DNA from: Bacteroidota bacterium
GTDB lineage: Bacteria > Bacteroidota > Ignavibacteria > UBA10030
Length of the DNA stretch: 64,000 nucleotides
Direction of reading: 5' to 3'
Assembly (NCBI GenBank): GCA_041695085.1
Contig: JBGFRO010000020.1
Span: 130,732 to 194,731 of the forward strand
Part shown: piece after piece, positions 21,968 to 51,083 of the stretch
How positions within the stretch are numbered: position 1 is the first letter of the stretch
How the letters are laid out: every line of letters begins with the position of its first letter
Notes under the pieces: generated by a model
Database searches by the model: none
The model's input: the letters and a program-made list of their open reading frames with translations, nothing else
What the model was told of the DNA's origin: nothing
Position numbers and translations under genes: made by a program

Positions 21968-22651
21968 TCATGCAATCGTCTTAATTACCTTTATCACCCG
22001 CCACATAAAGGCCACGTCTTTTTTCCGGACCACCATCGGTTCGTATTCGGGATTGAGCGGAACGAGGTGGAGGAACTGATCGTCGATCTTAATTCGCTTC
22101 ACCGTGTCTTCGTCATTCACCCGCACCACGCAGATGTCGCCGCTGCGCGCCTCCAATTTTGGACTGACGACGATGATATCGCCGTCTTCGATTCGTGGCG
22201 CCATGCTGTTTCCCTTCACCTCGAGCGCAAAGGCGCTCGGATCGCGCACGTCGTCCACCGTGATGTATTTCTCAACATAGTCGGGATGGAAGATCATGCT
22301 TGGCGCCCCGCCCGGAACGGAAGAGAGGAGCGGAAGCTGGATTAAATCGACTTTTCGGTATCTCCCCGTTGCCAATGGAAAGACATTCGCCTCATTGCGC
22401 GTTGGGTACATTTCCCCCTTGCCGGTCAACAGCCACTGGGGCGAGGCACCGGTGATCTTCGCCAAACGCATGAGGTAATTGCTGTCGGGCACCTGTTCCC
22501 CCTTCTCCCAGCGCTGGATCGTACGGCTCGCGACGTCGAGTCTCGCCGCAAGCGTCACTTGATCGATTCCTCTCCCCCTTCGCGCCTCGCGAATGCGTTG
22601 TGCAAGCGTCTGCTTCATGGGTATGATCTCCTCGTCGGACGGGATAGACAT
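21968..22651 (-). CDS. XRE-family HTH + S24 (LexA/CI-like) peptidase-domain repressor
   Basis: N-terminal HTH (LAQRIREARRGRGIDQVTLAARLDVASRTIQRWEKG) and a C-terminal S24 fold (GNSMAPRIEDGDIIVV). Confidence 0.75.
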   Translation of the reverse strand: MSIPSDEEIIPMKQTLAQRIREARRGRGIDQVTLAARLDVASRTIQRWEKGEQVPDSNYLMRLAKITGASPQWLLTGKGEMYPTRNEANVFPLATGRYRKVDLIQLPLLSSVPGGAPSMIFHPDYVEKYITVDDVRDPSAFALEVKGNSMAPRIEDGDIIVVSPKLEARSGDICVVRVNDEDTVKRIKIDDQFLHLVPLNPEYEPMVVRKKDVAFMWRVIKVIKTIA

Positions 22652-22843: not shown

Positions 22844-23146
22844 ATGGTGACAGCACTTGTGCTTTTAAACGTTGCACGCGAGCGAACGAACACCGTTGCC
22901 GAGCAACTGACGGCCATCAAAGGCGTTACGGAGGTCTACTCCGTTGCCGGCAGGTACGACCTTGCTGCGATCATCCGCGTCAAAGAAAACGAGGAACTTG
23001 CTGCAGTGGTGACGGAGAAGATTCGCGCGATTGACGGCATCGAGCGCTCCGAAACGCTTATTGCCTTTCGCGTCTTCTCGAAATATGATCTGGAGATGGC
23101 GTTTTCCATCGGTTTGGAAGAAACGGAGAGATCGAGACAGAGATGA
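22844..23146 (+). CDS. stand-alone Lrp/AsnC C-terminal (RAM) ligand-binding domain protein
   Basis: ATG at 22844. The ~100-aa sequence matches the AsnC_trans_reg domain (..[25 protein letters not shown]..) and lacks an N-terminal HTH. Stop overlaps the rsgA start. Confidence 0.55.
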
Positions 23147-24213
23147 CGCTTAAGCAGCTGGGTTGGAGCGACTTCTTCGAAGCGTACTTCGCACCGTTCC
23201 GCGAGGAGGGAAAAGAAGTCGGTCGTGTTGCCATTCCCCACCGTGGTCGGTACGTGCTCTATACAACGCATGGAGAATTGTGGGGAGAAGTCTCCGGCAA
23301 GTTTCGCTTCGAGACGAAAGATTCCGGAGGCTATCCCGCGGTCGGTGATTGGGTGGTGATCGACGCGCGACCGAAAGAGGGGACGGCGACCATTCATCAT
23401 GTGTTGCAGCGCCGGACGAAATTCTCGCGCAAGGTGGCTGGTCAGAAAACAGAAGAACAAGTCGTTGCTGCCAATGTCGATGTCGTGTTCCTCGTGAGCG
23501 GGTTGGATCACGACTTCAATCTGCGGCGCATTGAGCGCTATCTCACGGTCGCTTGGGAGAGCGGTGCTTCACCGGTCATCGTTTTGAACAAGACCGATCT
23601 CTGCAGCGATGTTCCGGAACGCGTGGCAGAGGTAGAGGCCATCGCTCAAGGCGTGCCGGTCTTGGCGATGAGTGCCGTCAAGGATGAAGGAGTTCGCGCG
23701 CTGCTCGAGTTCTTACCTGAAGGCAAAACCGGAGCGTTGCTGGGCTCATCCGGAGTTGGAAAATCGACTATTGTGAACCATCTTCTCGGTTACGACGCAC
23801 AGGAGACGCAAGGAGTGCGTGAGAGCGACAGTCGGGGCCGCCACACCACGAGCCGACGCGAACTCCTTCTCTTGCCATCCGGGGGAATGTTGATCGACAC
23901 GCCCGGCATGCGCGAACTGCAATTGTGGAGTGGTGAGGGATTGCATCACAGCTTTGAGGATATTGAGGAGCTGGCAGCGCAGTGCCGGTTTCGCGATTGC
24001 CGGCATGAACAAGAACCTGATTGCGCGGTGCAGAAGGCGTTGGATGAGGGCTCCCTCGATCCGGAGCGATTTGAAAGTTACCTGAAACTCCAGCGTGAGC
24101 TCAACTATCTCGAGCGTCGTCAGAACCAACGCGCGGCATTCATCGAGAAGCAACGCTGGAAGAAAACCGGGCGCCTGGCGAAGGATATTCAGAAGCGAAA
24201 GGGGAAAATTTGA
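23143..24213 (+). CDS. rsgA: ribosome small-subunit-dependent GTPase A
   Basis: Circularly permuted GTPase motifs ([18 protein letters not shown]) and a C-terminal zinc knuckle ([14 protein letters not shown]). Confidence 0.85.
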
Positions 24214-24380
24214 AGTGCAGCGCAGCGGAGAATACAGCACTCTTTGTCACTCAAGTTGATCGCTTTTCCAAAGTAGGAGGCTGAAAACGCCGATAAAATG
24301 GATTCTCGCGGATCAACTATTTCAAACTGATGTTACGCAAACAGCCATTTTCGATGTCTCCGGGGTTCCTTTTGGATGTT

Positions 24381-24404
24381 ACTTTCTTTGATGCCAAAGA
24401 AAGT
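24381..24404. repeat. perfect 10-bp-arm hairpin preceding hairpin-unit locus A
   Basis: actttctttg atgc caaagaaagt. Confidence 0.5.
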
Positions 24405-24420
24405 AACCAAAGAAAGCTTT

Positions 24421-24580
24421 CCGAAATCGTAACGCACGCGAACGAGCAGCCTCCCCACAGCCCGTTGATTTCGGCCTCGGAGAGCATTGCAACTGATTGT
24501 CAGGAGTGTACGTGGCCGAAATCAAAACGCACGGGAGAGGGCTGCCCGCGCACAGCGCCAACGATTTCGGAGGCCTCTGC
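24421..24580. repeat. tandem pair of CCGAAATC..(~40 nt)..GATTTCGG hairpin units, locus A
   Basis: Unit 1 is CCGAAATCGtAACGCACG...GATTTCGG (24421-24474). Unit 2 is CCGAAATCAaAACGCACG...GATTTCGG (24516-24570). Homologous to 47699-47844. Confidence 0.6.
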
Positions 24581-24677
24581 GCAAAAGATTCTTTAGCCGG
24601 TTTGCCGACGCGAACTCACGGTCATTCAAAGGACAGACCTGCGAGAAGGGGGAAATCGAGATTCTGCGTAATATCAG

Positions 24678-25022
24678 TTACTTATTCCATCCCAACTGTT
24701 GTCGGGCTGCGTCGGACATCCGGCTCGGCGTCCACTCCGGTTGCCAGACGATGCGCACGTCCGCATCACCTACACCGGGAATCTTCTTCACACGATCCTT
24801 CACTTGCTGAGAGATCATGGAACTGGCCGGACAGCCGGGAGAGGTGAGAGTCATCTTCACCCCGACCCAATCGTCAACAATCGTAACGCCGTAGACCAGG
24901 CCGAGGTCAACAATGTTGACGGGAATCTCCGGGTCGTAACACTCCTTCAACGCCTCGTAGATAGCTTCTTGTGTGATCGGTTGTTTGTTGAGATTTTCCA
25001 TCATTTGTACCTTTATGCACAA
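24678..25022 (-). CDS. DUF59/MIP18-family Fe-S cluster assembly factor (SufT-like)
   Basis: 114 aa with motifs DPEIPVNIVDLGLVY and TSPGCP. Confidence 0.8.
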   Translation of the reverse strand: MCIKVQMMENLNKQPITQEAIYEALKECYDPEIPVNIVDLGLVYGVTIVDDWVGVKMTLTSPGCPASSMISQQVKDRVKKIPGVGDADVRIVWQPEWTPSRMSDAARQQLGWNK

Positions 25023-45475: not shown

Positions 45476-45928
45476 ATGCTTTCTACGCTGACCATACCGT
45501 GGACTCTTCTCCGTGTGAGCGTTCTCGCTTCCTATTTCATCGGCATGTTCTTTGGGAGCGGCTTACACGTCCATTCTGCATTGAGCCACGAGCACAACGC
45601 TGAAGGTTTCCACAGGCACTCACTGGTAGTCCACGTTCACATCACGGCACTGATGCGATCTGCGGATTCCCACAGCGAGAATATATTTTCGTCAGATAGT
45701 GAACATGGACATCAGGTTCCTCAAGTTCAGTTGATTGCGATTCGTGCACCACATTCGAAACTCTCCAAGTCGGTTCAGCAGAACACTTTTTCCTCTTTTG
45801 ATATACCATCCGCTCCATCCTTCAGTCTCCCACGTATTCTTCTCTTTGTATTTGCACAGGAGACTTCGCCACCGCTTCATTCACTGACAGTACTTGCACG
45901 CTTCGGTCGTTCCCCGCCCGTGGTCTGA
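45476..45928 (+). CDS. hypothetical His-rich small membrane protein upstream of czc operon
   Basis: 150 aa with an N-terminal TM and His-rich segments (HVHSALSHEHNAEGFHRHSLVVHVH). No family assignment. Confidence 0.3.
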   Translation: MLSTLTIPWTLLRVSVLASYFIGMFFGSGLHVHSALSHEHNAEGFHRHSLVVHVHITALMRSADSHSENIFSSDSEHGHQVPQVQLIAIRAPHSKLSKSVQQNTFSSFDIPSAPSFSLPRILLFVFAQETSPPLHSLTVLARFGRSPPVV

Positions 45929-46037: not shown

Positions 46038-47588
46038 TTGTTCCAACAGAATAGGAATTGTCCTATGGAAAGATTTCTTCACCTAATTGCTTTCATCACC
46101 GCACTCCTCATTAGCTGCGGTCCAGGAGGCGATGAAAATCAAGCCGAACTTCCGGGTGGATCAGTGACGCTGTGGACGTCAACGTCGGAACTTTTTATGG
46201 AATATCCCGCTCTCGTCGTCGGACAAGAAGCACGCTTCGCCATCCACCTTACTTGGCTTTCGGACTTCAAGCCCGTTACGGAGGGGCGGCTGGATTTGGA
46301 GTTTACGTCGAGCGATGGGACCCGGAAGAAGACCTCAGCAGACAAACCGACATCGCCCGGCATCTTTCGGCCGACCATTACCTTCGACAAGGCCGGGACA
46401 TACCGGATGACCTTAACCATAGACGGAAGATCGCGCGACATCCTCCACGTTGACGGAATACGCGTGTTTGCGTCTGCCGGCGAGATACCACCCGAAACGG
46501 AAAGCCCACAGGCAGAACAGCTGATCACATTTCTCAAAGAACAACAGTGGAAGATTGATTTCCGAACTGAACCCGCCGTCCGAAGACGAATAAGCGGTAC
46601 TGTTCGAGCCTCCTGTGAGCTCATCCCCAAGCTTTCTACCGAAGCAATCGTCTCTGCGCCGTTCTCCGGAGTGATTCCAGCCGAAGAGAATGCAGTTCTT
46701 CCCGTCATTGGGCAATCGGTGAGCAAGGGTTCACAACTTGCGCTGATGGTTCCTTCTGCTGAAACACCGAGCGGTCTCGAAAACTTCGCCTCCCGATTCA
46801 TCCAGGCAGAAACCGAACGTGCACTTGCCGCGAAGGAATTTGAGCGAGCAAAGCAGCTTCGCGCTATCGACGGCATTTCGGAGAAAGAATATCACGAGGC
46901 TGAGATCGGTTTCAAACAGGCGGACGCCACCTACCGGCTGTTGAGCAAGTTCATCCAATCCAAGGAGAGCGGTGAATCTCCGGACGCATTTATCCTCACG
47001 GCGCCCATTTCGGGAACGATCATCGAAACGAATGTTGTCCCAGGCAGGCAAGTCAATGCCGGCGAGCCGCTCTACCGGATCATTGATGCACGGTCGGTGT
47101 GGGTCCGTGCAAACGTCGCGGCGGAAAACATTGGCACGTTGACCCGGCCCCGCCGCGCATGGCTTCAGTTAGCTGGGTTGACAAATACCGTTGAGGTCAA
47201 TGAGCGCAACGGCAAGCTCGTCTCGATTGCAAAGGCGATTGATCCACGAACACGGTCCTTCCCCGTCATCTTTGAGACACAGAACCCAAGCGGAAGCCTT
47301 CGAATCGGCATGTACGGAGAAATCCTCATAGCGACGGGAGAAGAAAAGGAAGCGCTTGTCATTCCCGAATCCGCTCTGATCGAAGAGGAGGGCCGTTACA
47401 GTGTCTATGTTCATATCGAAGGTGAGGCCTTTGTGAAGCGGGACGTGACGCTGGGTGAGCGCAACGGAGACTTGGTCGAGATCCGAAGCGGTATCTCCGA
47501 AGGCGAGCGGGTTGTCACCGTCGGTGCATATCAGGTGCGACTCGCGTCACGATCGTCGCAGGTGCCTGCTCACGGACACGAGCACTAG
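46038..47588 (+). CDS. czcB-like: efflux RND periplasmic adaptor (membrane fusion protein, CzcB/CusB-like) with extra N-terminal domain
   Basis: Lipoprotein signal (..LISCGPG). About 130-aa N-terminal Ig-like extra domain, then HlyD/MFP barrel-sandwich and beta-barrel motifs. Ends His-rich (PAHGHEH). Confidence 0.8.
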   Translation: MFQQNRNCPMERFLHLIAFITALLISCGPGGDENQAELPGGSVTLWTSTSELFMEYPALVVGQEARFAIHLTWLSDFKPVTEGRLDLEFTSSDGTRKKTSADKPTSPGIFRPTITFDKAGTYRMTLTIDGRSRDILHVDGIRVFASAGEIPPETESPQAEQLITFLKEQQWKIDFRTEPAVRRRISGTVRASCELIPKLSTEAIVSAPFSGVIPAEENAVLPVIGQSVSKGSQLALMVPSAETPSGLENFASRFIQAETERALAAKEFERAKQLRAIDGISEKEYHEAEIGFKQADATYRLLSKFIQSKESGESPDAFILTAPISGTIIETNVVPGRQVNAGEPLYRIIDARSVWVRANVAAENIGTLTRPRRAWLQLAGLTNTVEVNERNGKLVSIAKAIDPRTRSFPVIFETQNPSGSLRIGMYGEILIATGEEKEALVIPESALIEEEGRYSVYVHIEGEAFVKRDVTLGERNGDLVEIRSGISEGERVVTVGAYQVRLASRSSQVPAHGHEH

Positions 47589-47643
47589 CAAAGCTTCGCC
47601 TTAAACCGACGAGCGAAGATTGCTTGAGTACCAAGAGCTATAT

Positions 47644-47681
47644 GCCCCTTTTCTTTTTGCTCGTCCAAAAAGAAAAGGGGC
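47644..47681 (+). terminator. strong perfect hairpin (16-bp stem, 6-nt loop) 55 nt after the MFP stop, inside the czcB-czcA gap
   Basis: gccccttttctttttg ctcgtc caaaaagaaaaggggc. Confidence 0.5.
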
Positions 47682-47698
47682 GAAAAAGTAAAAGGACG

Positions 47699-47844
47699 CC
47701 GAAATCGCAACGCACGGGATAGCCACCAACGCACCTGCCATAATTTCGGTGCCTCAGGAGTTGTCGCTTCGACATCGAGTATGCACCTGCACCGAAATTA
47801 AACGCACGAAAAATGTCGCCTCCGCACACCGCCAGCGATTTCGG
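47699..47844. repeat. tandem pair of CCGAAAT..ATTTCGG hairpin units, locus B (between czcB and czcA)
   Basis: Unit 1 is CCGAAATCGcAACGCACGggatag...aATTTCGG. Unit 2 is CCGAAATTAaACGCACG...GATTTCGG. Homologous to 24421-24570. Confidence 0.6.
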
Positions 47845-48002
47845 TTGCCTACGCACTACCTGAGGTGAAGCACAATCATGTATTCGAACGGTGACTAAAA
47901 CCATCGCTATTCTCTCACAACTACTTACGGGAAAAACTTGTCATCCCACCATGAGGGGATCGTCATTTTACCTGATGGAGTTTTCCTTGAGGAGAAATTG
48001 AA

Positions 48003-51000
48003 ATGCTCGATCGAATGATAAGTTGGTCTCTGCAAAACAGGCTCCTTGTTGTGCTTGCCTCGATCCTTATTCTCGGTATCGGAGTCTTCACTGTCACAAG
48101 AATTCCGGTCGATGTCTTTCCCGACCTCACAGCCCCAACGGTGGTCATCCTTGCCGAAGCGCACGGAATGGCCACGGAAGAAGTCGAGACGATGGTCACG
48201 TTTCCCATCGAAACCGCCATGAATGGAGCCACGGGCGTTCGGCGGGTGCGCTCATCTTCTGCCATGGGTATCGGCATCATCTGGGTAGAGTTTGACTGGG
48301 GCACCGATATTTTCATTGCGCGTCAGATCGTCAACGAAAAACTCCAACTTGTCAGTTCGCAGTTGCCACGCGACATTCGCCCGCCCGTGCTTGCCCCTAT
48401 CTCCTCCATTATGGGTGAAATTATGCTTGTGAGCATTTCCAGCGACCAGCATAGCGAGCTCGATGTGCGGACAGTCGCCGATTGGACGATTCGCCGCAGG
48501 CTCCTTGCCGTTCCCGGTGTTTCTCAGGTTATTCCGATCGGAGGAGGAAGAAAACAGTATCAGGTGCTCGTTGACCCCGACAAACTTCGGGCACACGATA
48601 TTTCGCTTCAGGAGCTTCTCCGCGCTGTTGAAAGCTCTAACCAGAATGCCTCCGGCGGCGTGTTTATGGAAAAAGGGCAGGAGTATCTCATCCGCGGCCT
48701 CGGTCGCGTCCATTCATTGGAGGACATTGGGCGGTCCGTTGTTGCCGTTCGTGAAGGCGTTCCCATCCTTGTGAAGGATGTTGCAGATCTCAAGATTGAC
48801 GCTGCCGTGAAGATCGGGGACGCCTCAGTGAATGCAAAGCCCGCTGTCGTCATCTCGATTCAGAAGCAACCCGGAGCCAATACGCTCGAACTCACGCGAA
48901 AGATCGAACGCACCCTGGAGGATATTCAGAAAACCCTTCCACAGGGGATGGCCATCAATTCTCATATTTTCCGTCAAGCGGATTTCATTCAGGTTGCCAT
49001 TGATAACGTCGCTGCGGTGCTGAGAGACGGCGCCATACTCGTGGTTCTTGTGCTGGTGTTGTTTCTCGCCAATCTCCGGACAACGTTCATCTCCCTGACA
49101 GCAATACCGCTTTCGTTGATCTTTGCCGTCTTCGTGATGAAGTTTTTCGATATCACCATCAACACCATGACGCTTGGCGGAATGGCGATTGCCGTTGGCG
49201 CCATCGTTGATGACGCCATCATTGATGTAGAGAATGTCTTTCGGCGATTGAAAGAGAATAAGCACGCCGAGAACCCGCGTCCAACTCTCGACGTCATCCT
49301 TCACGCGTCTCGCGAGATCCGGTCTTCGATTGTCAATGCAACGCTGATCATCATTGTCGTTTTCCTTCCGCTTTTCTTTTTGAGTGGGGTCGAAGGGAGA
49401 CTGTTGCGTCCCCTGGGAATTGCCTACATCGCTTCCATTGGGGCGTCGCTTCTCGTTGCCCTCAGCGTGACACCGGCATTATGTGCGTACCTTCTCCCCC
49501 GAGCTCGATTCTTGGAGAAAAAAGAAGACCCGTTCGTGCTTCGTCGACTCAAAGAAGTATATTCGCGAACGCTCGATATCGTTATGCGCAGGCCTCAGCA
49601 GGTGCTGGCTGGAGCGGTCGGTGCACTTGCCGTGGCGTTGACGATACTCCCATTTCTTGGCCGTGCCTTCCTCCCCGAATTCAACGAGGGCTCACTTACG
49701 CTCAGTGTCGTTACGGTCCCGGGCACATCGCTTGAAGAATCCAACAAGATTGGGAATCTTGTAGAAGAAATTCTACTAAGCCATCCAGTCATTAAGTCCA
49801 CGGCGCGCCGGACCGGGAGAGCCGAGCTTGATGAGCATGCGCAAGGAGTCAACTCCGCCGAGCTCGACGCCCGTTTCGAGCTCAATGGCATGTCGAAACA
49901 GGAGATGCTCGACGATCTTCGAAGGATGCTTTCCGTTGTTCCCGGCACGAATATCACGATTGGACAACCGCTCGGACACCGCATCGACCACATGCTTTCA
50001 GGCACACGAGCGAATATTGCCGTGAAAATCTTTGGGAGCGATCTCTACCGGTTACGAGCCATTGCCGAACAGGCTCGGAACCAGATCCAGCAGGTCGAGG
50101 GTGTAGTGGATCTGGCGGTCGAGCAACAAATGAACGTCCCCCAGATCCGCATCAAGGCAAACAGGTTACAGATGGCACGATATGGTATGACGATCGCTGA
50201 TTTCTCAGAAGCAATCGACGTGGCCTTTAACGGGGAGGTCGTCTCTCAGGTCTTAGAGGGGCAACAGCACTTCGACTTGCTGGTACGCTTTAACGATGAC
50301 CATCGCGGTAACATTGCAAAAATCAAGCAGGCTCTCTTTGACACGCCGACGGGGATAAAAGTGCCGATTTCCGAGCTTGCCACGATTGTTTCGGAGAAAG
50401 GGATCAATACCATCAGCCGGGAGAATGCGCAGAGGAAAATCGTGGTGCAGGCAAACGTCTCGGGACGCGACCTTCACAGCGTTATTACGGATATTCAACA
50501 GCGGATGGAGCGCAATGTGTTGCTTCCGGAAGGATATTATGTAGAATACGGTGGGCAATTCGAAAGCGAGCAGGAGGCAACCCGCATCATATCGCTCTTG
50601 AGTATCGCCGCAGTTCTCATCATATTTCTCATCCTATATTTTGAACTGAAGTCCATTCGTGTTGCTTTGCTTGTCATGGTGAATCTTCCTCTGGCACTAA
50701 TTGGCGGAATTGTCGCTGTGCTTCTTTCCGACGGCGTGCTAAGCGTCGCCTCGCTCGTCGGCTTTATCACCCTCTTTGGTATTGCAACGCGAAACGGCAT
50801 TCTTTTAGTCTCTCACTACCAGACTCTGCTGGCCGAAGGAAAGTCACTTGACCAAGCAGTAAAGCAAGGCTCCATGGAACGACTCAGTCCTGTGCTGATG
50901 ACCGCTCTTTCGACTGGCTTAGCGCTGATACCACTTGCGCTTGCAGGTGGCGATCCGGGAAGCGAGATTCAATCTCCTATGGCAATTGTTATCCTTGGCG

Positions 51001-51083
51001 GATTGGTCAGTTCGACAGCCTTAAACTTGGTCGTGATTCCTGCGTTGTTTTTGAAATTTGCAGGCAAAAAAGGAACCAAGTAA
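48003..51083 (+). CDS. czcA-like: CusA/CzcA-family heavy-metal efflux RND transporter
   Basis: 1026 aa with the characteristic 12-TM/two large periplasmic loop layout and conserved blocks (..AIVDDAIIDVENVFRRLKEN.., ..GGMAIAVGAIVDD..). Confidence 0.9.
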   Translation: MLDRMISWSLQNRLLVVLASILILGIGVFTVTRIPVDVFPDLTAPTVVILAEAHGMATEEVETMVTFPIETAMNGATGVRRVRSSSAMGIGIIWVEFDWGTDIFIARQIVNEKLQLVSSQLPRDIRPPVLAPISSIMGEIMLVSISSDQHSELDVRTVADWTIRRRLLAVPGVSQVIPIGGGRKQYQVLVDPDKLRAHDISLQELLRAVESSNQNASGGVFMEKGQEYLIRGLGRVHSLEDIGRSVVAVREGVPILVKDVADLKIDAAVKIGDASVNAKPAVVISIQKQPGANTLELTRKIERTLEDIQKTLPQGMAINSHIFRQADFIQVAIDNVAAVLRDGAILVVLVLVLFLANLRTTFISLTAIPLSLIFAVFVMKFFDITINTMTLGGMAIAVGAIVDDAIIDVENVFRRLKENKHAENPRPTLDVILHASREIRSSIVNATLIIIVVFLPLFFLSGVEGRLLRPLGIAYIASIGASLLVALSVTPALCAYLLPRARFLEKKEDPFVLRRLKEVYSRTLDIVMRRPQQVLAGAVGALAVALTILPFLGRAFLPEFNEGSLTLSVVTVPGTSLEESNKIGNLVEEILLSHPVIKSTARRTGRAELDEHAQGVNSAELDARFELNGMSKQEMLDDLRRMLSVVPGTNITIGQPLGHRIDHMLSGTRANIAVKIFGSDLYRLRAIAEQARNQIQQVEGVVDLAVEQQMNVPQIRIKANRLQMARYGMTIADFSEAIDVAFNGEVVSQVLEGQQHFDLLVRFNDDHRGNIAKIKQALFDTPTGIKVPISELATIVSEKGINTISRENAQRKIVVQANVSGRDLHSVITDIQQRMERNVLLPEGYYVEYGGQFESEQEATRIISLLSIAAVLIIFLILYFELKSIRVALLVMVNLPLALIGGIVAVLLSDGVLSVASLVGFITLFGIATRNGILLVSHYQTLLAEGKSLDQAVKQGSMERLSPVLMTALSTGLALIPLALAGGDPGSEIQSPMAIVILGGLVSSTALNLVVIPALFLKFAGKKGTK

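What the first reader, a model, noticed from the sequence alone, without database searches (positions are those of the whole stretch)
24381..24580. Novel structured repeat family: tandem CCGAAATC-AACGCACG-...-GATTTCGG hairpin units at two loci
Two loci, 24381-24580 and 47644-47860, each contain a perfect stem-loop followed by two consecutive ~95-nt units. Each unit opens with CCGAAAT(C/T)(G/A)nAACGCACG and closes about 40 nt later with the exact reverse complement (G/A)ATTTCGG, followed by (g)GCCTC. The four units share additional internal blocks (CGCACagcGCC). Each unit can fold as an 8-bp-stem hairpin on either strand. The pattern is too regular and too conserved between loci to be chance and matches no element class I recognise (not a CRISPR array, not REP/BIME). 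It may be a small structured ncRNA family, a MITE-like element, or a cis-regulatory RNA. Locus B sits inside an efflux operon.
Basis: seen in the sequence. Interest (0 to 1): 0.65.

Follow-up and report, generated by a model that had tools for sequence, protein, structure and literature searches.

The report
New mobile intergenic repeat family, Ignavibacteria
The two loci are copies of an undescribed, high-copy, non-coding insertion element of Ignavibacteria-like bacteria that has jumped into gene spacers, one of them inside a metal-efflux operon. It is a new family of a familiar kind of selfish or structural repeat rather than a new RNA regulator.

Summary
Four CCGAAAT…AACGCACG…ATTTCGG units lie at the stated positions (0.01 expected by chance), and each pair is preceded by a perfect hairpin.

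In 114 unique relatives the arms pair in a nested way: the 5' arm of unit 1 pairs with the 3' arm of unit 2, and the 3' arm of unit 1 pairs with the 5' arm of unit 2. The result is one long stem with two paralogous, C-rich, unstructured 35-40-nt loops.

This roughly 215-nt module has no Rfam match. It is very abundant in Ignavibacteria/Bacteroidota genomes and sediment metagenomes: 144 modules in 637 kb of element-selected DNA. It occurs alone, in tandem, or most often as convergent pairs. It sits in either orientation beside unrelated genes and inside 350-780-bp units bounded by terminal inverted repeats.

Both window copies are insertions.
- The czcB-czcA spacer is 15-16 nt in relatives but 415 nt here.
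- A 91%-identical relative lacks the module at locus A, and homology resumes exactly at the right terminal repeat.

Stem pairs are almost purely Watson-Crick, and both DNA strands fold equally well.

Best reading: a new MITE/BIME-like mosaic repeat family. What the module does, and which transposase moves it, remain unknown. Stems are conserved at orthologous sites, which leaves room for a host-level role. Interest is moderate.

The parts
24325..24339 (+). Locus A left terminal inverted repeat, AACTGATGTTACGCA (T3 type)
   Evidence: It is 93% complementary to 24665-24679. The same terminus occurs in L015, L028, L074, L109, L018 and L102, and similarity between copies starts here.
24378..24407 (+). 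Perfect hairpin GTTACTTTCTTTG-atgc-CAAAGAAAGTAAC, with a pyrimidine 5' arm and a purine 3' arm
   Evidence: In 76 unique relatives the stems average 13.7 bp, with 1015 Watson-Crick pairs against 23 other pairs. The base of the stem covaries: GTTAC, GGCAC, GCCCC, CCCAT.
24408..24420 (+). Purine tail CAAAGAAAGCTTT, a direct repeat of the hairpin's 3' arm
   Evidence: Direct repeat D2 and inverted repeat I6. A tail that copies the 3' arm is seen across the family, for example in L062 and L053.
24421..24430 (+). Outer helix, 5' arm (CCGAAATCGT). It pairs with 24561-24570.
   Evidence: Inverted repeat I4 (11 nt, 100%). Helix 1 is 98.1% paired, and 7 of its 9 pairs show double changes.
24431..24464 (+). 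Loop 1: AACGCACG motif, a variable stretch, then a C-rich CCCCACAGCC motif
   Evidence: Consensus AAC.C.CG … C.C.C..GCC. The loops are no more structured than shuffles, mean z = 0.02.
24465..24476 (+). Inner helix, 5' arm (TTGATTTCGGCC). It pairs with 24514-24525.
   Evidence: Helix 2 is 96.9% paired, and all 12 pairs show double changes.
24477..24513 (+). Apical spacer between the inner-helix arms
   Evidence: Its sequence is poorly conserved but its length is constrained. By the CM-alignment column definition the length is 41-44 nt in 96 of 114 copies.
24514..24525 (+). Inner helix, 3' arm (GGCCGAAATCAA)
24526..24560 (+). Loop 2, a paralogue of loop 1 (AACGCACG … CGCACAGCGCC)
24561..24571 (+). 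Outer helix, 3' arm (ACGATTTCGGA)
24572..24664 (+). Right-hand part of the locus A element. It holds no second module and is homologous to the right part of locus B and of L015/L028.
   Evidence: Alignments.
24665..24679 (+). Locus A right terminal inverted repeat, TGCGTAATATCAGTT. It abuts and overlaps the stop codon of the FeS_assembly_P gene (24678-25022, - strand).
   Evidence: In the module-free 91% relative L133, homology to the window resumes exactly at TTACTTATTCC, right after this repeat.
47585..47613 (+). Locus B left terminus, CTAGCAAAGCTTCGCCTTAAACCGACGAG. Its TAG is the czcB stop codon.
   Evidence: The same terminus occurs in the non-orthologous copies L053 and L062, and similarity starts at CTAG. 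Relatives read CACTAA followed by a 15-nt spacer at this point.
47644..47681 (+). Perfect hairpin GCCCCTTTTCTTTTTG-ctcgtc-CAAAAAGAAAAGGGGC
   Evidence: Inverted repeat I1.
47682..47698 (+). Purine tail GAAAAAGTAAAAGGACG, an imperfect direct repeat of the 3' arm
   Evidence: Inverted repeat I3.
47699..47708 (+). Outer helix, 5' arm (CCGAAATCGC). It pairs with 47835-47844.
   Evidence: Inverted repeat I7 (10 nt, 100%).
47709..47740 (+). Loop 1 (AACGCACG … AACGCACCTGCC)
47741..47752 (+). Inner helix, 5' arm (TAATTTCGGTGC). It pairs with 47789-47800.
   Evidence: Inverted repeat I2 (12 nt, 100%). The A-T pair here against G-C at locus A is a compensatory change.
47789..47800 (+). Inner helix, 3' arm (GCACCGAAATTA)
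47801..47834 (+). Loop 2 (AACGCACG … CCGCACACCGCC)
47835..47844 (+). Outer helix, 3' arm (GCGATTTCGG)
47845..47965 (+). Right-hand part of the locus B element. Its right end is approximate and degenerate.
   Evidence: It is conserved with the orthologous copy L010 and homologous to the locus A right part. L053 and L062 end in CTAG at the aligned position.

Best explanation
The two loci are copies of a previously undescribed family of non-coding, multi-copy insertion elements. The family is MITE-like with a BIME-like mosaic organisation, and it is found in Ignavibacteria-like Bacteroidota.

Each element is 350-780 bp long, is bounded by short terminal inverted repeats, and carries one or two copies of a roughly 215-nt module. 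When there are two, they are convergent. The module consists of:
- a perfect pyrimidine/purine hairpin;
- a purine tail that repeats the hairpin's 3' arm;
- a long nested stem made of an outer helix (CCGAAATCG/CGATTTCGG) and an inner helix (..ATTTCGG../..CCGAAAT..). The nested stem encloses two paralogous, C-rich loops of 35-40 nt that carry the motifs AAC(G/C)CACG and C.CAC..GCC.

Shown here: the architecture, the nested pairing, the copy number, the lack of any gene association, and the insertion status of both window copies.

Inferred:
- The elements are moved in trans by a transposase that recognises the termini. The CTGATG and CTAG types of terminus are what DDE transposases of the IS4/IS5 or IS630 kind leave.
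- The module is the cis-acting structured region. It would be read as folded single-stranded DNA or as a cruciform, with its conserved loop motifs acting as protein-binding sites.
- Complementarity is kept at the DNA level, by selection or by hairpin-templated correction. This would explain why stems vary by double changes with almost no G·U intermediates.
- At locus B the element is transcribed with the czcB-czcA operon and must form a very stable RNA structure between the two genes. This could alter mRNA stability or the expression ratio of the two genes, as REP/BIME elements do in E. coli.
For: Abundance and distribution. True matches were found in 17 Ignavibacteria/Bacteroidota genome loci and 80 metagenome contigs. 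A covariance model finds 144 non-overlapping modules, 114 of them unique, in 637 kb. Of these, 88 lie in convergent pairs with gaps of about 17 or 40 nt, 48 are solo, 6 are tandem and 2 form a divergent pair. Viral contigs hold none.

No gene link. Orientation relative to neighbours is 17 (-,-), 15 (+,+), 6 convergent and 3 divergent. The 150 neighbouring ORFs fall into 144 Pfam families, and no family occurs more than three times.

Non-coding. The overlapping ORFs have no Pfam hit and lie on opposite strands relative to the module at the two loci.

Termini. Locus A has a 15-nt inverted repeat that is shared with L015, L028, L074 and L109. Three related terminus families bracket solo and paired modules.

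Flanking direct repeats. They are TTACTCA/TTACTCA in L109, TTACTTAT/TTGCTTAT in L015 and TTAGTAA/TAAGTAA in L028.

Insertion polymorphism at locus B. The czcB-czcA spacer is 15-16 nt in five relatives whose MFP is 62-68% identical, against 415 nt in the window. An 86% relative carries a different 170-nt palindromic insert and no module.

Insertion polymorphism at locus A. A syntenic relative with 91% RsgA identity has no module, and homology resumes exactly after the right terminal repeat.

Structure. The nested helices are 96-98% paired, with 340 double-change cells against 93 in shuffles. Slid controls pair at 26-60%.

DNA-level signature. In about 2400 stem cells there are only 22 G·U and 11 A·C pairs. 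Both DNA strands fold equally well, at -52.8 and -57.0 kcal/mol with z = -8.4 and -8.3.
Against: No autonomous element with the same termini was found. The one IS5-like ORF (L058) is not linked to a module.

The window copies themselves lack clean target-site duplications: 4 of 7 at locus A. Locus B has a degenerate right end.

For the CTAG-type termini, a target duplication cannot be told apart from the repeat itself.

The stems are more conserved than a decaying selfish insertion should be. At orthologous sites, 0 of 42 helix columns changed against 33 of 109 other columns, with flanks at 74.5% identity (L013 vs L107). For window locus B against L010 the figures are 0 of 40 and 12 of 105.

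The loop motifs are conserved on one strand only, and G·U outnumbers A·C 33:15 when the hairpin is included. This leaves room for a strand-specific role in RNA or single-stranded DNA.
Confidence: 0.67

Rival explanations
1. A host-domesticated structural repeat, REP/BIME-like in function. Whatever its origin, the module would now be kept by the host. It could act as an RNA structure in polycistronic mRNAs that stabilises, processes or uncouples the message, or as a DNA site for a nucleoid or topology protein. This partly overlaps the main explanation.
For: Stems are unchanged at orthologous sites while flanks and loops diverge by 11-30%. Most copies lie between co-directional or convergent genes, and few lie between divergent ones: 3 of 41. 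Spacer and loop lengths are constrained. Convergent pairs present the same strand to transcription coming from either side.
Against: No transcription or binding data exist. Solo copies occur in both orientations within gene strings. No canonical terminator or promoter was found. No GTAG or CGTC head and no REP-sized unit is present. Conservation at orthologous sites could also come from gene conversion or from repeated insertion at hot spots.
Confidence: 0.2
2. An independent family of structured non-coding RNA genes. The module would be an sRNA or a guide-like RNA transcribed from its own promoter on the AACGCACG strand. The two symmetric internal loops would be the functional, ligand-, protein- or nucleic-acid-binding surfaces.
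For: There is strong covariation. Unpaired motifs are conserved and strand-asymmetric. The model scores 100-132 bits on one strand against about 30 on the other. G·U exceeds A·C by 33:15. RNA folds have z = -5.7 and -4.8.
Against: G·U makes up only about 1% of stem cells even at heavily covarying positions, for example C-G 52, U-A 49 and G·U 0. The antisense strand folds at least as well. No promoter or terminator was found. Copy density is high, and terminal repeats and insertion polymorphism are present. The loops are C-rich and unstructured. There is no Rfam relative.
Confidence: 0.1
3. A cis-regulatory RNA, such as a tandem riboswitch or leader, that controls the heavy-metal efflux genes downstream of locus B.
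For: Locus B lies 159 nt upstream of the RND gene, in sense orientation, inside a czc-type operon. Tandem architecture is known for some riboswitches.
Against: Locus A lies between two convergent gene ends. Neighbours across 150 ORFs are unrelated. Orientation is mixed. Orthologous operons work with a 15-nt spacer and no element.
Confidence: 0.02
4. A chance similarity, or a segmental duplication confined to this genome.
For: None beyond the presence of two copies in one window.
Against: Chance expectation is 0.01 matches. The flanks are unrelated. More than 100 unique relatives exist in other genomes and metagenomes.
Confidence: 0.01

Closest known systems
Bacterial MITEs with modular or structured interiors, for example the pneumococcal BOX elements (boxA-boxB(n)-boxC), Neisseria Correia elements, the bcr1 repeats of the Bacillus cereus group, and the Porphyromonas gingivalis MITE with an internal minisatellite (PMC4596501)
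   Same: All are small, non-coding and multi-copy. They are intergenic and often lie inside operons. They have terminal inverted repeats, internal tandem sub-units, strong hairpin potential with compensatory changes, and presence/absence variation between relatives.
   Different: The sequences are unrelated and the host clade differs (Ignavibacteria/Bacteroidota). The module architecture is distinct: a hairpin, a tail that copies the hairpin's 3' arm, and nested outer and inner helices that share a GAAAT core around two paralogous 35-40-nt loops. Convergent pairs of two different module subtypes are frequent. The mobilising transposase is not identified.
E. coli REP/BIME (PU) mosaic elements and REPINs
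   Same: Both are high-copy extragenic palindromic units combined in alternating orientation with conserved linkers. Both lie between co-directional or convergent genes and rarely between divergent ones. A host role in mRNA stability or DNA topology is possible.
   Different: REPs are 20-40 nt with a GTAG or CGTC head and are linked to RAYT (Y1) transposases. Here the unit is about 215 nt, has no such head, has terminal inverted repeats with 7-8-nt flanking direct repeats in one subfamily, and has no RAYT link (not tested genome-wide).
Integron attC sites
   Same: Four core sites are arranged → ← → ←. They pair in a nested way, outer with outer and inner with inner, when single-stranded.
   Different: There are no RYYYAAC/GTTRRRY cores. 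The 'spacers' between the outer and inner sites are 35-40 nt rather than 5-6. There is no cassette array and no integrase nearby. Both strands fold equally well.
IS110-family bridge RNAs and other transposon-borne guide RNAs (ωRNA/HEARO)
   Same: They are structured, mobile-element-associated nucleic acids with large internal loops flanked by conserved stems. They occur in many copies per genome.
   Different: No recombinase or nuclease gene is adjacent. One stem carries a single pair of loops rather than two separate loop-bearing stem-loops. No complementarity between the loops and the element ends or targets was seen. G·U pairs are almost absent.

Membership tests
MITE (non-autonomous DNA transposon) | Small (under about 800 bp) and without coding capacity | tested here: met
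   The elements are 350-780 bp long. The overlapping ORFs have no Pfam hit and lie on opposite strands relative to the module at the two loci.
MITE (non-autonomous DNA transposon) | Terminal inverted repeats at the points where similarity between copies begins and ends | tested here: met
   Locus A has a 15-nt repeat at 93% that is shared with six other copies. The T1, T2 and T3 terminus families bracket modules. The locus B left terminus is shared with L053 and L062, but its right end is degenerate.
MITE (non-autonomous DNA transposon) | Target-site duplication flanking the terminal repeats | tested here: inconclusive
   L109 matches 7 of 7, L015 7 of 8 and L028 6 of 7. Window locus A matches only 4 of 7 and L018 3 of 7. 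For the CTAG-type termini, a duplication cannot be separated from the repeat.
MITE (non-autonomous DNA transposon) | Many dispersed copies per genome at unrelated sites | tested here: met
   There are 144 modules in 637 kb. Single 5-8-kb loci hold up to five modules at separate sites. One MAG (CAVUAC01) holds copies on three contigs. The neighbours are unrelated.
MITE (non-autonomous DNA transposon) | Presence/absence polymorphism at orthologous sites | tested here: met
   At locus B the spacer is 15-16 nt in relatives against 415 nt in the window. At locus A the 91% relative L133 has no module, and its right boundary is exact.
MITE (non-autonomous DNA transposon) | A cognate autonomous IS with the same termini and a transposase | tested here: not met
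Whole genomes could not be scanned.
REP/BIME | A 20-40-nt imperfect palindrome with a conserved GTAG or CGTC head | tested here: not met
   The unit is about 215 nt and no such head is present.
REP/BIME | Association with a RAYT (Y1 HUH) transposase gene in the genome | not tested
   Only 64 kb of the source genome was available, and no RAYT was looked for.
Structured ncRNA or riboswitch family | Covariation that supports a conserved secondary structure | tested here: met
   22 of 24 pairs show double changes, and no shuffle out of 500 reaches the observed values.
Structured ncRNA or riboswitch family | An RNA-type substitution pattern, with G·U tolerated and a strand-specific fold | tested here: not met
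   G·U makes up about 1% of stem cells (22 G·U against 11 A·C). The antisense strand folds equally well or better.
Structured ncRNA or riboswitch family | Consistent position and orientation relative to a regulated gene class, or its own promoter and terminator | tested here: not met
Any Rfam family | A match to a curated covariance model | tested here: not met
   There were no gathering-threshold hits in the window. The best E-values at the loci were 0.1-9, and those hits covered the plain hairpins only.
Integron attC | R''/L''…L'/R' cores (RYYYAAC/GTTRRRY) with 5-6-nt spacers, in cassette arrays next to intI | tested here: not met
   The cores are CCGAAAT/ATTTCGG with 35-40-nt loops. There is no array or integrase context.

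The most novel reading that the evidence does not exclude
The 215-nt module is not just transposon baggage. It would be a functional folded nucleic acid, as RNA or single-stranded DNA, that has been under long-term purifying selection. Its pseudo-two-fold stem would present two paralogous, sequence-conserved, unstructured 35-40-nt loops as recognition surfaces for a dimeric protein or for other nucleic acids. That would make it a new class of mobile-element-borne structured RNA/DNA, in the way that HEARO/ωRNA and bridge RNAs were once 'orphan' repeats.
Probability: 0.15. Interest if true: 0.7.

Novelty: new member of a known kind. Interest (0 to 1): 0.36.

Why it matters
The work defines a new, abundant repeat family for a poorly studied class, Ignavibacteria. 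It provides a covariance model, three terminus types and clear insertion examples. This helps annotation, because spurious ORFs of 60-120 aa overlap the copies. It also helps MAG assembly and binning.

The family can explain long spacers inside operons such as czcB-czcA, and it marks insertion hot spots. The same junction carries a different palindromic insert in an 86% relative.

The stems are strictly conserved at orthologous sites against 25% flank divergence. Stem variation is almost purely Watson-Crick. These two features make the family a useful case for asking how palindromic repeats are maintained: by selection, by hairpin-templated repair or by gene conversion. They also raise the question of whether such repeats acquire host functions.

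Tried and rejected
- **Rfam.** I ran Rfam at gathering and E-value thresholds. Only spurious miRNA-like hits to the plain hairpins appeared.
Covariation rejects them.
- **Mini-hairpins inside the loops, or a four-way junction.** RNAalifold proposed a 3-bp helix, but the loops are no more structured than shuffles, with mean z of 0.02 and 0.11.
- **Pairing between the two loops.** It is present at locus A (GCAGCC/GGCTGC) but is not conserved in relatives, by inspection.
- **Triplex or mirror-repeat reading of the hairpin plus tail.** Locus B, L062 and L053 show that the tail is a direct repeat of the 3' arm, not a mirror repeat.
- **Phage association.** All eight viral-contig matches were chance.
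- **Gene association or a riboswitch.** Both are rejected.
- **Sigma-70 promoters or intrinsic terminators.** None were found at locus A, and only weak terminator-like sites at locus B.
- **An autonomous copy.** I searched for inverted termini 0.6-4 kb apart and ran phmmer with E. coli InsH, whose sequence I recalled from memory. One unlinked IS5-like ORF turned up.
- **Literature.** Three full-text searches found no description. The REP-like 18-mer of Caldithrix (PMC5317091) is unrelated.
- **Burkholderiaceae matches of the genome scan.** They are a single conserved coding stretch.

Full report
**1. The observation**

The window holds exactly four matches to CCGAAATY-N30-60-RATTTCGG. They lie at 24421-24474, 24516-24570, 47699-47749 and 47792-47844, all on the + strand. 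Dinucleotide shuffles give 0.01 matches. Unit starts are 95 and 93 nt apart.

Each pair of units follows a perfect hairpin: a 13-bp stem at 24378-24407 and a 16-bp stem at 47644-47681. The two loci share this layout but not their flanks. The hairpin sequences also differ, so this is not a segmental duplication.

No Rfam family matches at gathering thresholds. At permissive thresholds only the plain hairpins draw spurious miRNA-like hits.

**2. Context**

Locus A lies between the 3' ends of two convergent genes: an RsgA GTPase (23143-24213, +) and an FeS_assembly_P protein (24678-25022, -). Locus B lies between an RND membrane-fusion gene of CusB/CzcB type (46038-47588, +) and the RND pump (48003-51083, +). 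A cation-diffusion facilitator follows.

**3. Relatives**

An exact-pattern scan of species-representative genomes returned 35 stretches. Seventeen of them are true relatives, all from Ignavibacteria, Ignavibacteriales or 'Bacteroidota' MAGs, plus one labelled Chitinophagales. Several come from the same MAG. The rest are chance matches or one conserved Burkholderiaceae coding stretch. A metagenome scan returned 80 contigs, mostly from sediments. Viral contigs gave only chance matches.

The best homologues of the window's own proteins are from Ignavibacteria. The window maps to a 559-kb JGI contig.

**4. The fold**

Across 63 and then 114 unique copies, the arms do not close each unit.

- Under local pairing, the base next to the 7-nt core of unit 1 is a C·A mismatch in 39 of 63 copies.
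- Under nested pairing, the same position is C-G in 61 of 63. The positions beyond it covary: G-C 49 with A-T 12 in the outer helix, and U-A 28, C-G 27 and G-C 4 in the inner helix.

RNAalifold recovers the same nested structure on its own. On a model-based alignment of 118 distinct rows, the outer helix (9 bp) is 98% paired and the inner helix (12 bp) is 97% paired. There are 340 double-change cells against 93±14 in shuffles. Pairing falls to 26-60% when partners are slid by one to three columns.

The window's two copies show this directly. The inner helix is TTGATTTCGGCC/GGCCGAAATCAA at locus A and TAATTTCGGTGC/GCACCGAAATTA at locus B.

The two strands enclosed by the helices are paralogous, C-rich and G-poor. 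Each carries AAC(G/C)CACG near its 5' end and C.CAC..GCC near its 3' end. They are no more structured than shuffles.

The upstream hairpin always has a CTTTCTTT-type 5' arm and an AAAGAAAG-type 3' arm. Its base covaries. It is followed by a tail that repeats the 3' arm directly.

**5. RNA or DNA?**

Stem variation is almost purely Watson-Crick. In about 2400 stem cells there are 22 G·U and 11 A·C pairs. At one pair that splits C-G 52 against U-A 49, there is not a single G·U. The hairpin stems show 1015 Watson-Crick pairs, 11 G·U and 4 A·C.

The antisense strand folds at least as well as the sense strand. As RNA the values are -104.9 vs -94.2 kcal/mol at locus A and -88.0 vs -80.1 at locus B. 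As DNA at locus A they are -57.0 vs -52.8 kcal/mol, with z near -8.3 for both strands. No sigma-70 promoter or canonical terminator flanks either locus.

This is what DNA-level palindromy looks like, whether as a cruciform or as single-stranded DNA on either strand. It is not the pattern of an RNA gene. The modest excess of G·U over A·C (33:15 overall) and the strand-asymmetric loop motifs keep a strand-specific role possible.

**6. Genomic behaviour**

The covariance model finds 144 non-overlapping modules in 637 kb of DNA that was selected for holding at least one. Of these, 88 form convergent (tail-to-tail) pairs with gaps of about 17 or 40 nt, 48 are solo, 6 are tandem and 2 form a divergent pair. 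Some 5-8-kb loci hold up to five modules.

The two halves of a pair belong to different subtypes. One common partner has TCGAAAT outer and GTGAAAT inner cores, which is further covariation.

Orientation relative to flanking genes is mixed: 17 antisense, 15 sense, 6 between convergent genes and 3 between divergent genes. The 150 nearest ORFs fall into 144 Pfam families with no enrichment. ORFs that overlap the window copies have no family match.

**7. Boundaries**

Similarity between non-orthologous copies starts mostly at the hairpin. In some subfamilies it starts 90-140 nt further out.

Locus A and its closest relatives (L015, L028, L074, L109, L018) are bounded by CTGATGTTACGCA…TGCGTAACATCAG, about 330-352 bp apart. 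Flanking direct repeats are perfect in L109 (TTACTCA), 7 of 8 in L015 and 6 of 7 in L028. They are poor at window locus A, at 4 of 7.

Paired elements of 580-780 bp are bracketed by related termini, (C)TAGTGCCGTTTCCAA and CTAGTGGATTGTTACGAT. The locus B subtype starts with CTAGCAAAGCTTCGCC in three non-orthologous copies and ends in CTAG in two of them.

From general knowledge, CTAG-flanked ends are typical of IS5-type (YTAR) or IS630-type (TA within CTAG) insertions, and IS10 ends begin with CTGATG. This is a lead, not a test. No autonomous element was found.

**8. Both window copies are insertions**

*Locus B.* In five relatives whose membrane-fusion protein is 62-68% identical, the czcB stop and the czcA start are 15-16 nt apart (…CACTAA GAAAGGAGCGACACG ATG). 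In the window they are 415 nt apart, and the element's first CTAG supplies the stop codon. An 86%-identical relative has a different 170-nt palindromic insert at the same junction and no module.

*Locus A.* A syntenic relative with 91%-identical RsgA has no module. It is the same MAG that carries three locus A-type copies elsewhere. Its sequence becomes homologous to the window exactly at TTACTTATTCC, the base after the right terminal repeat. The left side is not alignable, and that relative carries an extra PEMT gene there.

**9. A complication**

Resident copies keep their stems. L013:4432 and L107:2804 sit in flanks that are 74.5% identical. They differ at 0 of 42 helix columns but at 33 of 109 other columns. 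Window locus B and its orthologue L010 differ at 0 of 40 helix columns against 12 of 105 others.

A purely selfish, decaying insertion would not show this. Possible causes are host-level selection, gene conversion among copies, hairpin-templated repair (which would also explain the absence of G·U intermediates), or repeated insertion at hot spots.

**10. Verdict**

The finding is real and belongs to a large, apparently undescribed family. Three literature searches found nothing.

It is best filed as a new MITE/BIME-like mosaic repeat of Ignavibacteria. Terminal repeats, multi-copy dispersal, lack of coding capacity and insertion polymorphism were all tested and met. Target duplications are seen in relatives only, and no transposase has been identified.

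The riboswitch or cis-regulatory reading is rejected. The independent-ncRNA reading is unlikely but not excluded. What the conserved loops bind, and whether the module has a host function, remain open.

Noticed in passing
L131 1690-1858 (orthologue of window 47589-48002): In an 86%-identical relative, the same czcB-czcA junction carries a different 170-nt insert with its own inverted repeat (GCCAAGACGCGAAGGA / TCCTTCGCGCTCTTGGC) and no module. The junction looks like a hot spot for palindromic inserts.
   Followed up: partly
L002, L020, L013:4370-4430, L086, L093, L100 and L081 (upstream parts of modules): A second family of short palindromes is nested inside some modules, even within the hairpin loop. 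The sequences are GTCCCGC-N4-5-GCGGGAT, often followed by another hairpin, and CTCCGCCGGAGGCGGA plus TGAGCCnnnGGCTCA. The window holds none.
   Followed up: partly
L130 82-1800: Five tandem ORFs of about 82 aa with GIY-YIG nuclease domains, spaced about 370 nt apart, lie upstream of a czc operon in a relative's 1.9-Mb contig.
   Followed up: no
L133/L134 3679-4520 vs window 24213-24680: The 91% relative has a PEMT (phospholipid methyltransferase) gene between RsgA and FeS_assembly_P, together with a 70-nt duplicate of the FeS gene's 3' end. The window has the element there instead, so the region has been rearranged.
   Followed up: partly
window 21968-22651 (-): This is a LexA/CI-like repressor with HTH_3 and Peptidase_S24 domains, two genes upstream of locus A. 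It is conserved in synteny in the relative L133.
   Followed up: no
window 45476-45928 (+) and orthologues in L124-L132: A conserved ORF of about 150 aa with no Pfam match directly precedes the czcB-like gene in all relatives examined. It may be an uncharacterised component of this efflux operon.
   Followed up: no
L022 5900-7200: Four modules lie in head-to-tail tandem, about 350-390 nt apart. Each is preceded by an extra small hairpin (GTGACGC…GCGTCA). This satellite-like arrangement differs from the convergent pairs.
   Followed up: no
L001, L008, L016, L023, L026, L027, L031-L033: Burkholderiaceae matches to the search pattern are one conserved 64-nt coding stretch and are unrelated to the element.
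   Followed up: yes
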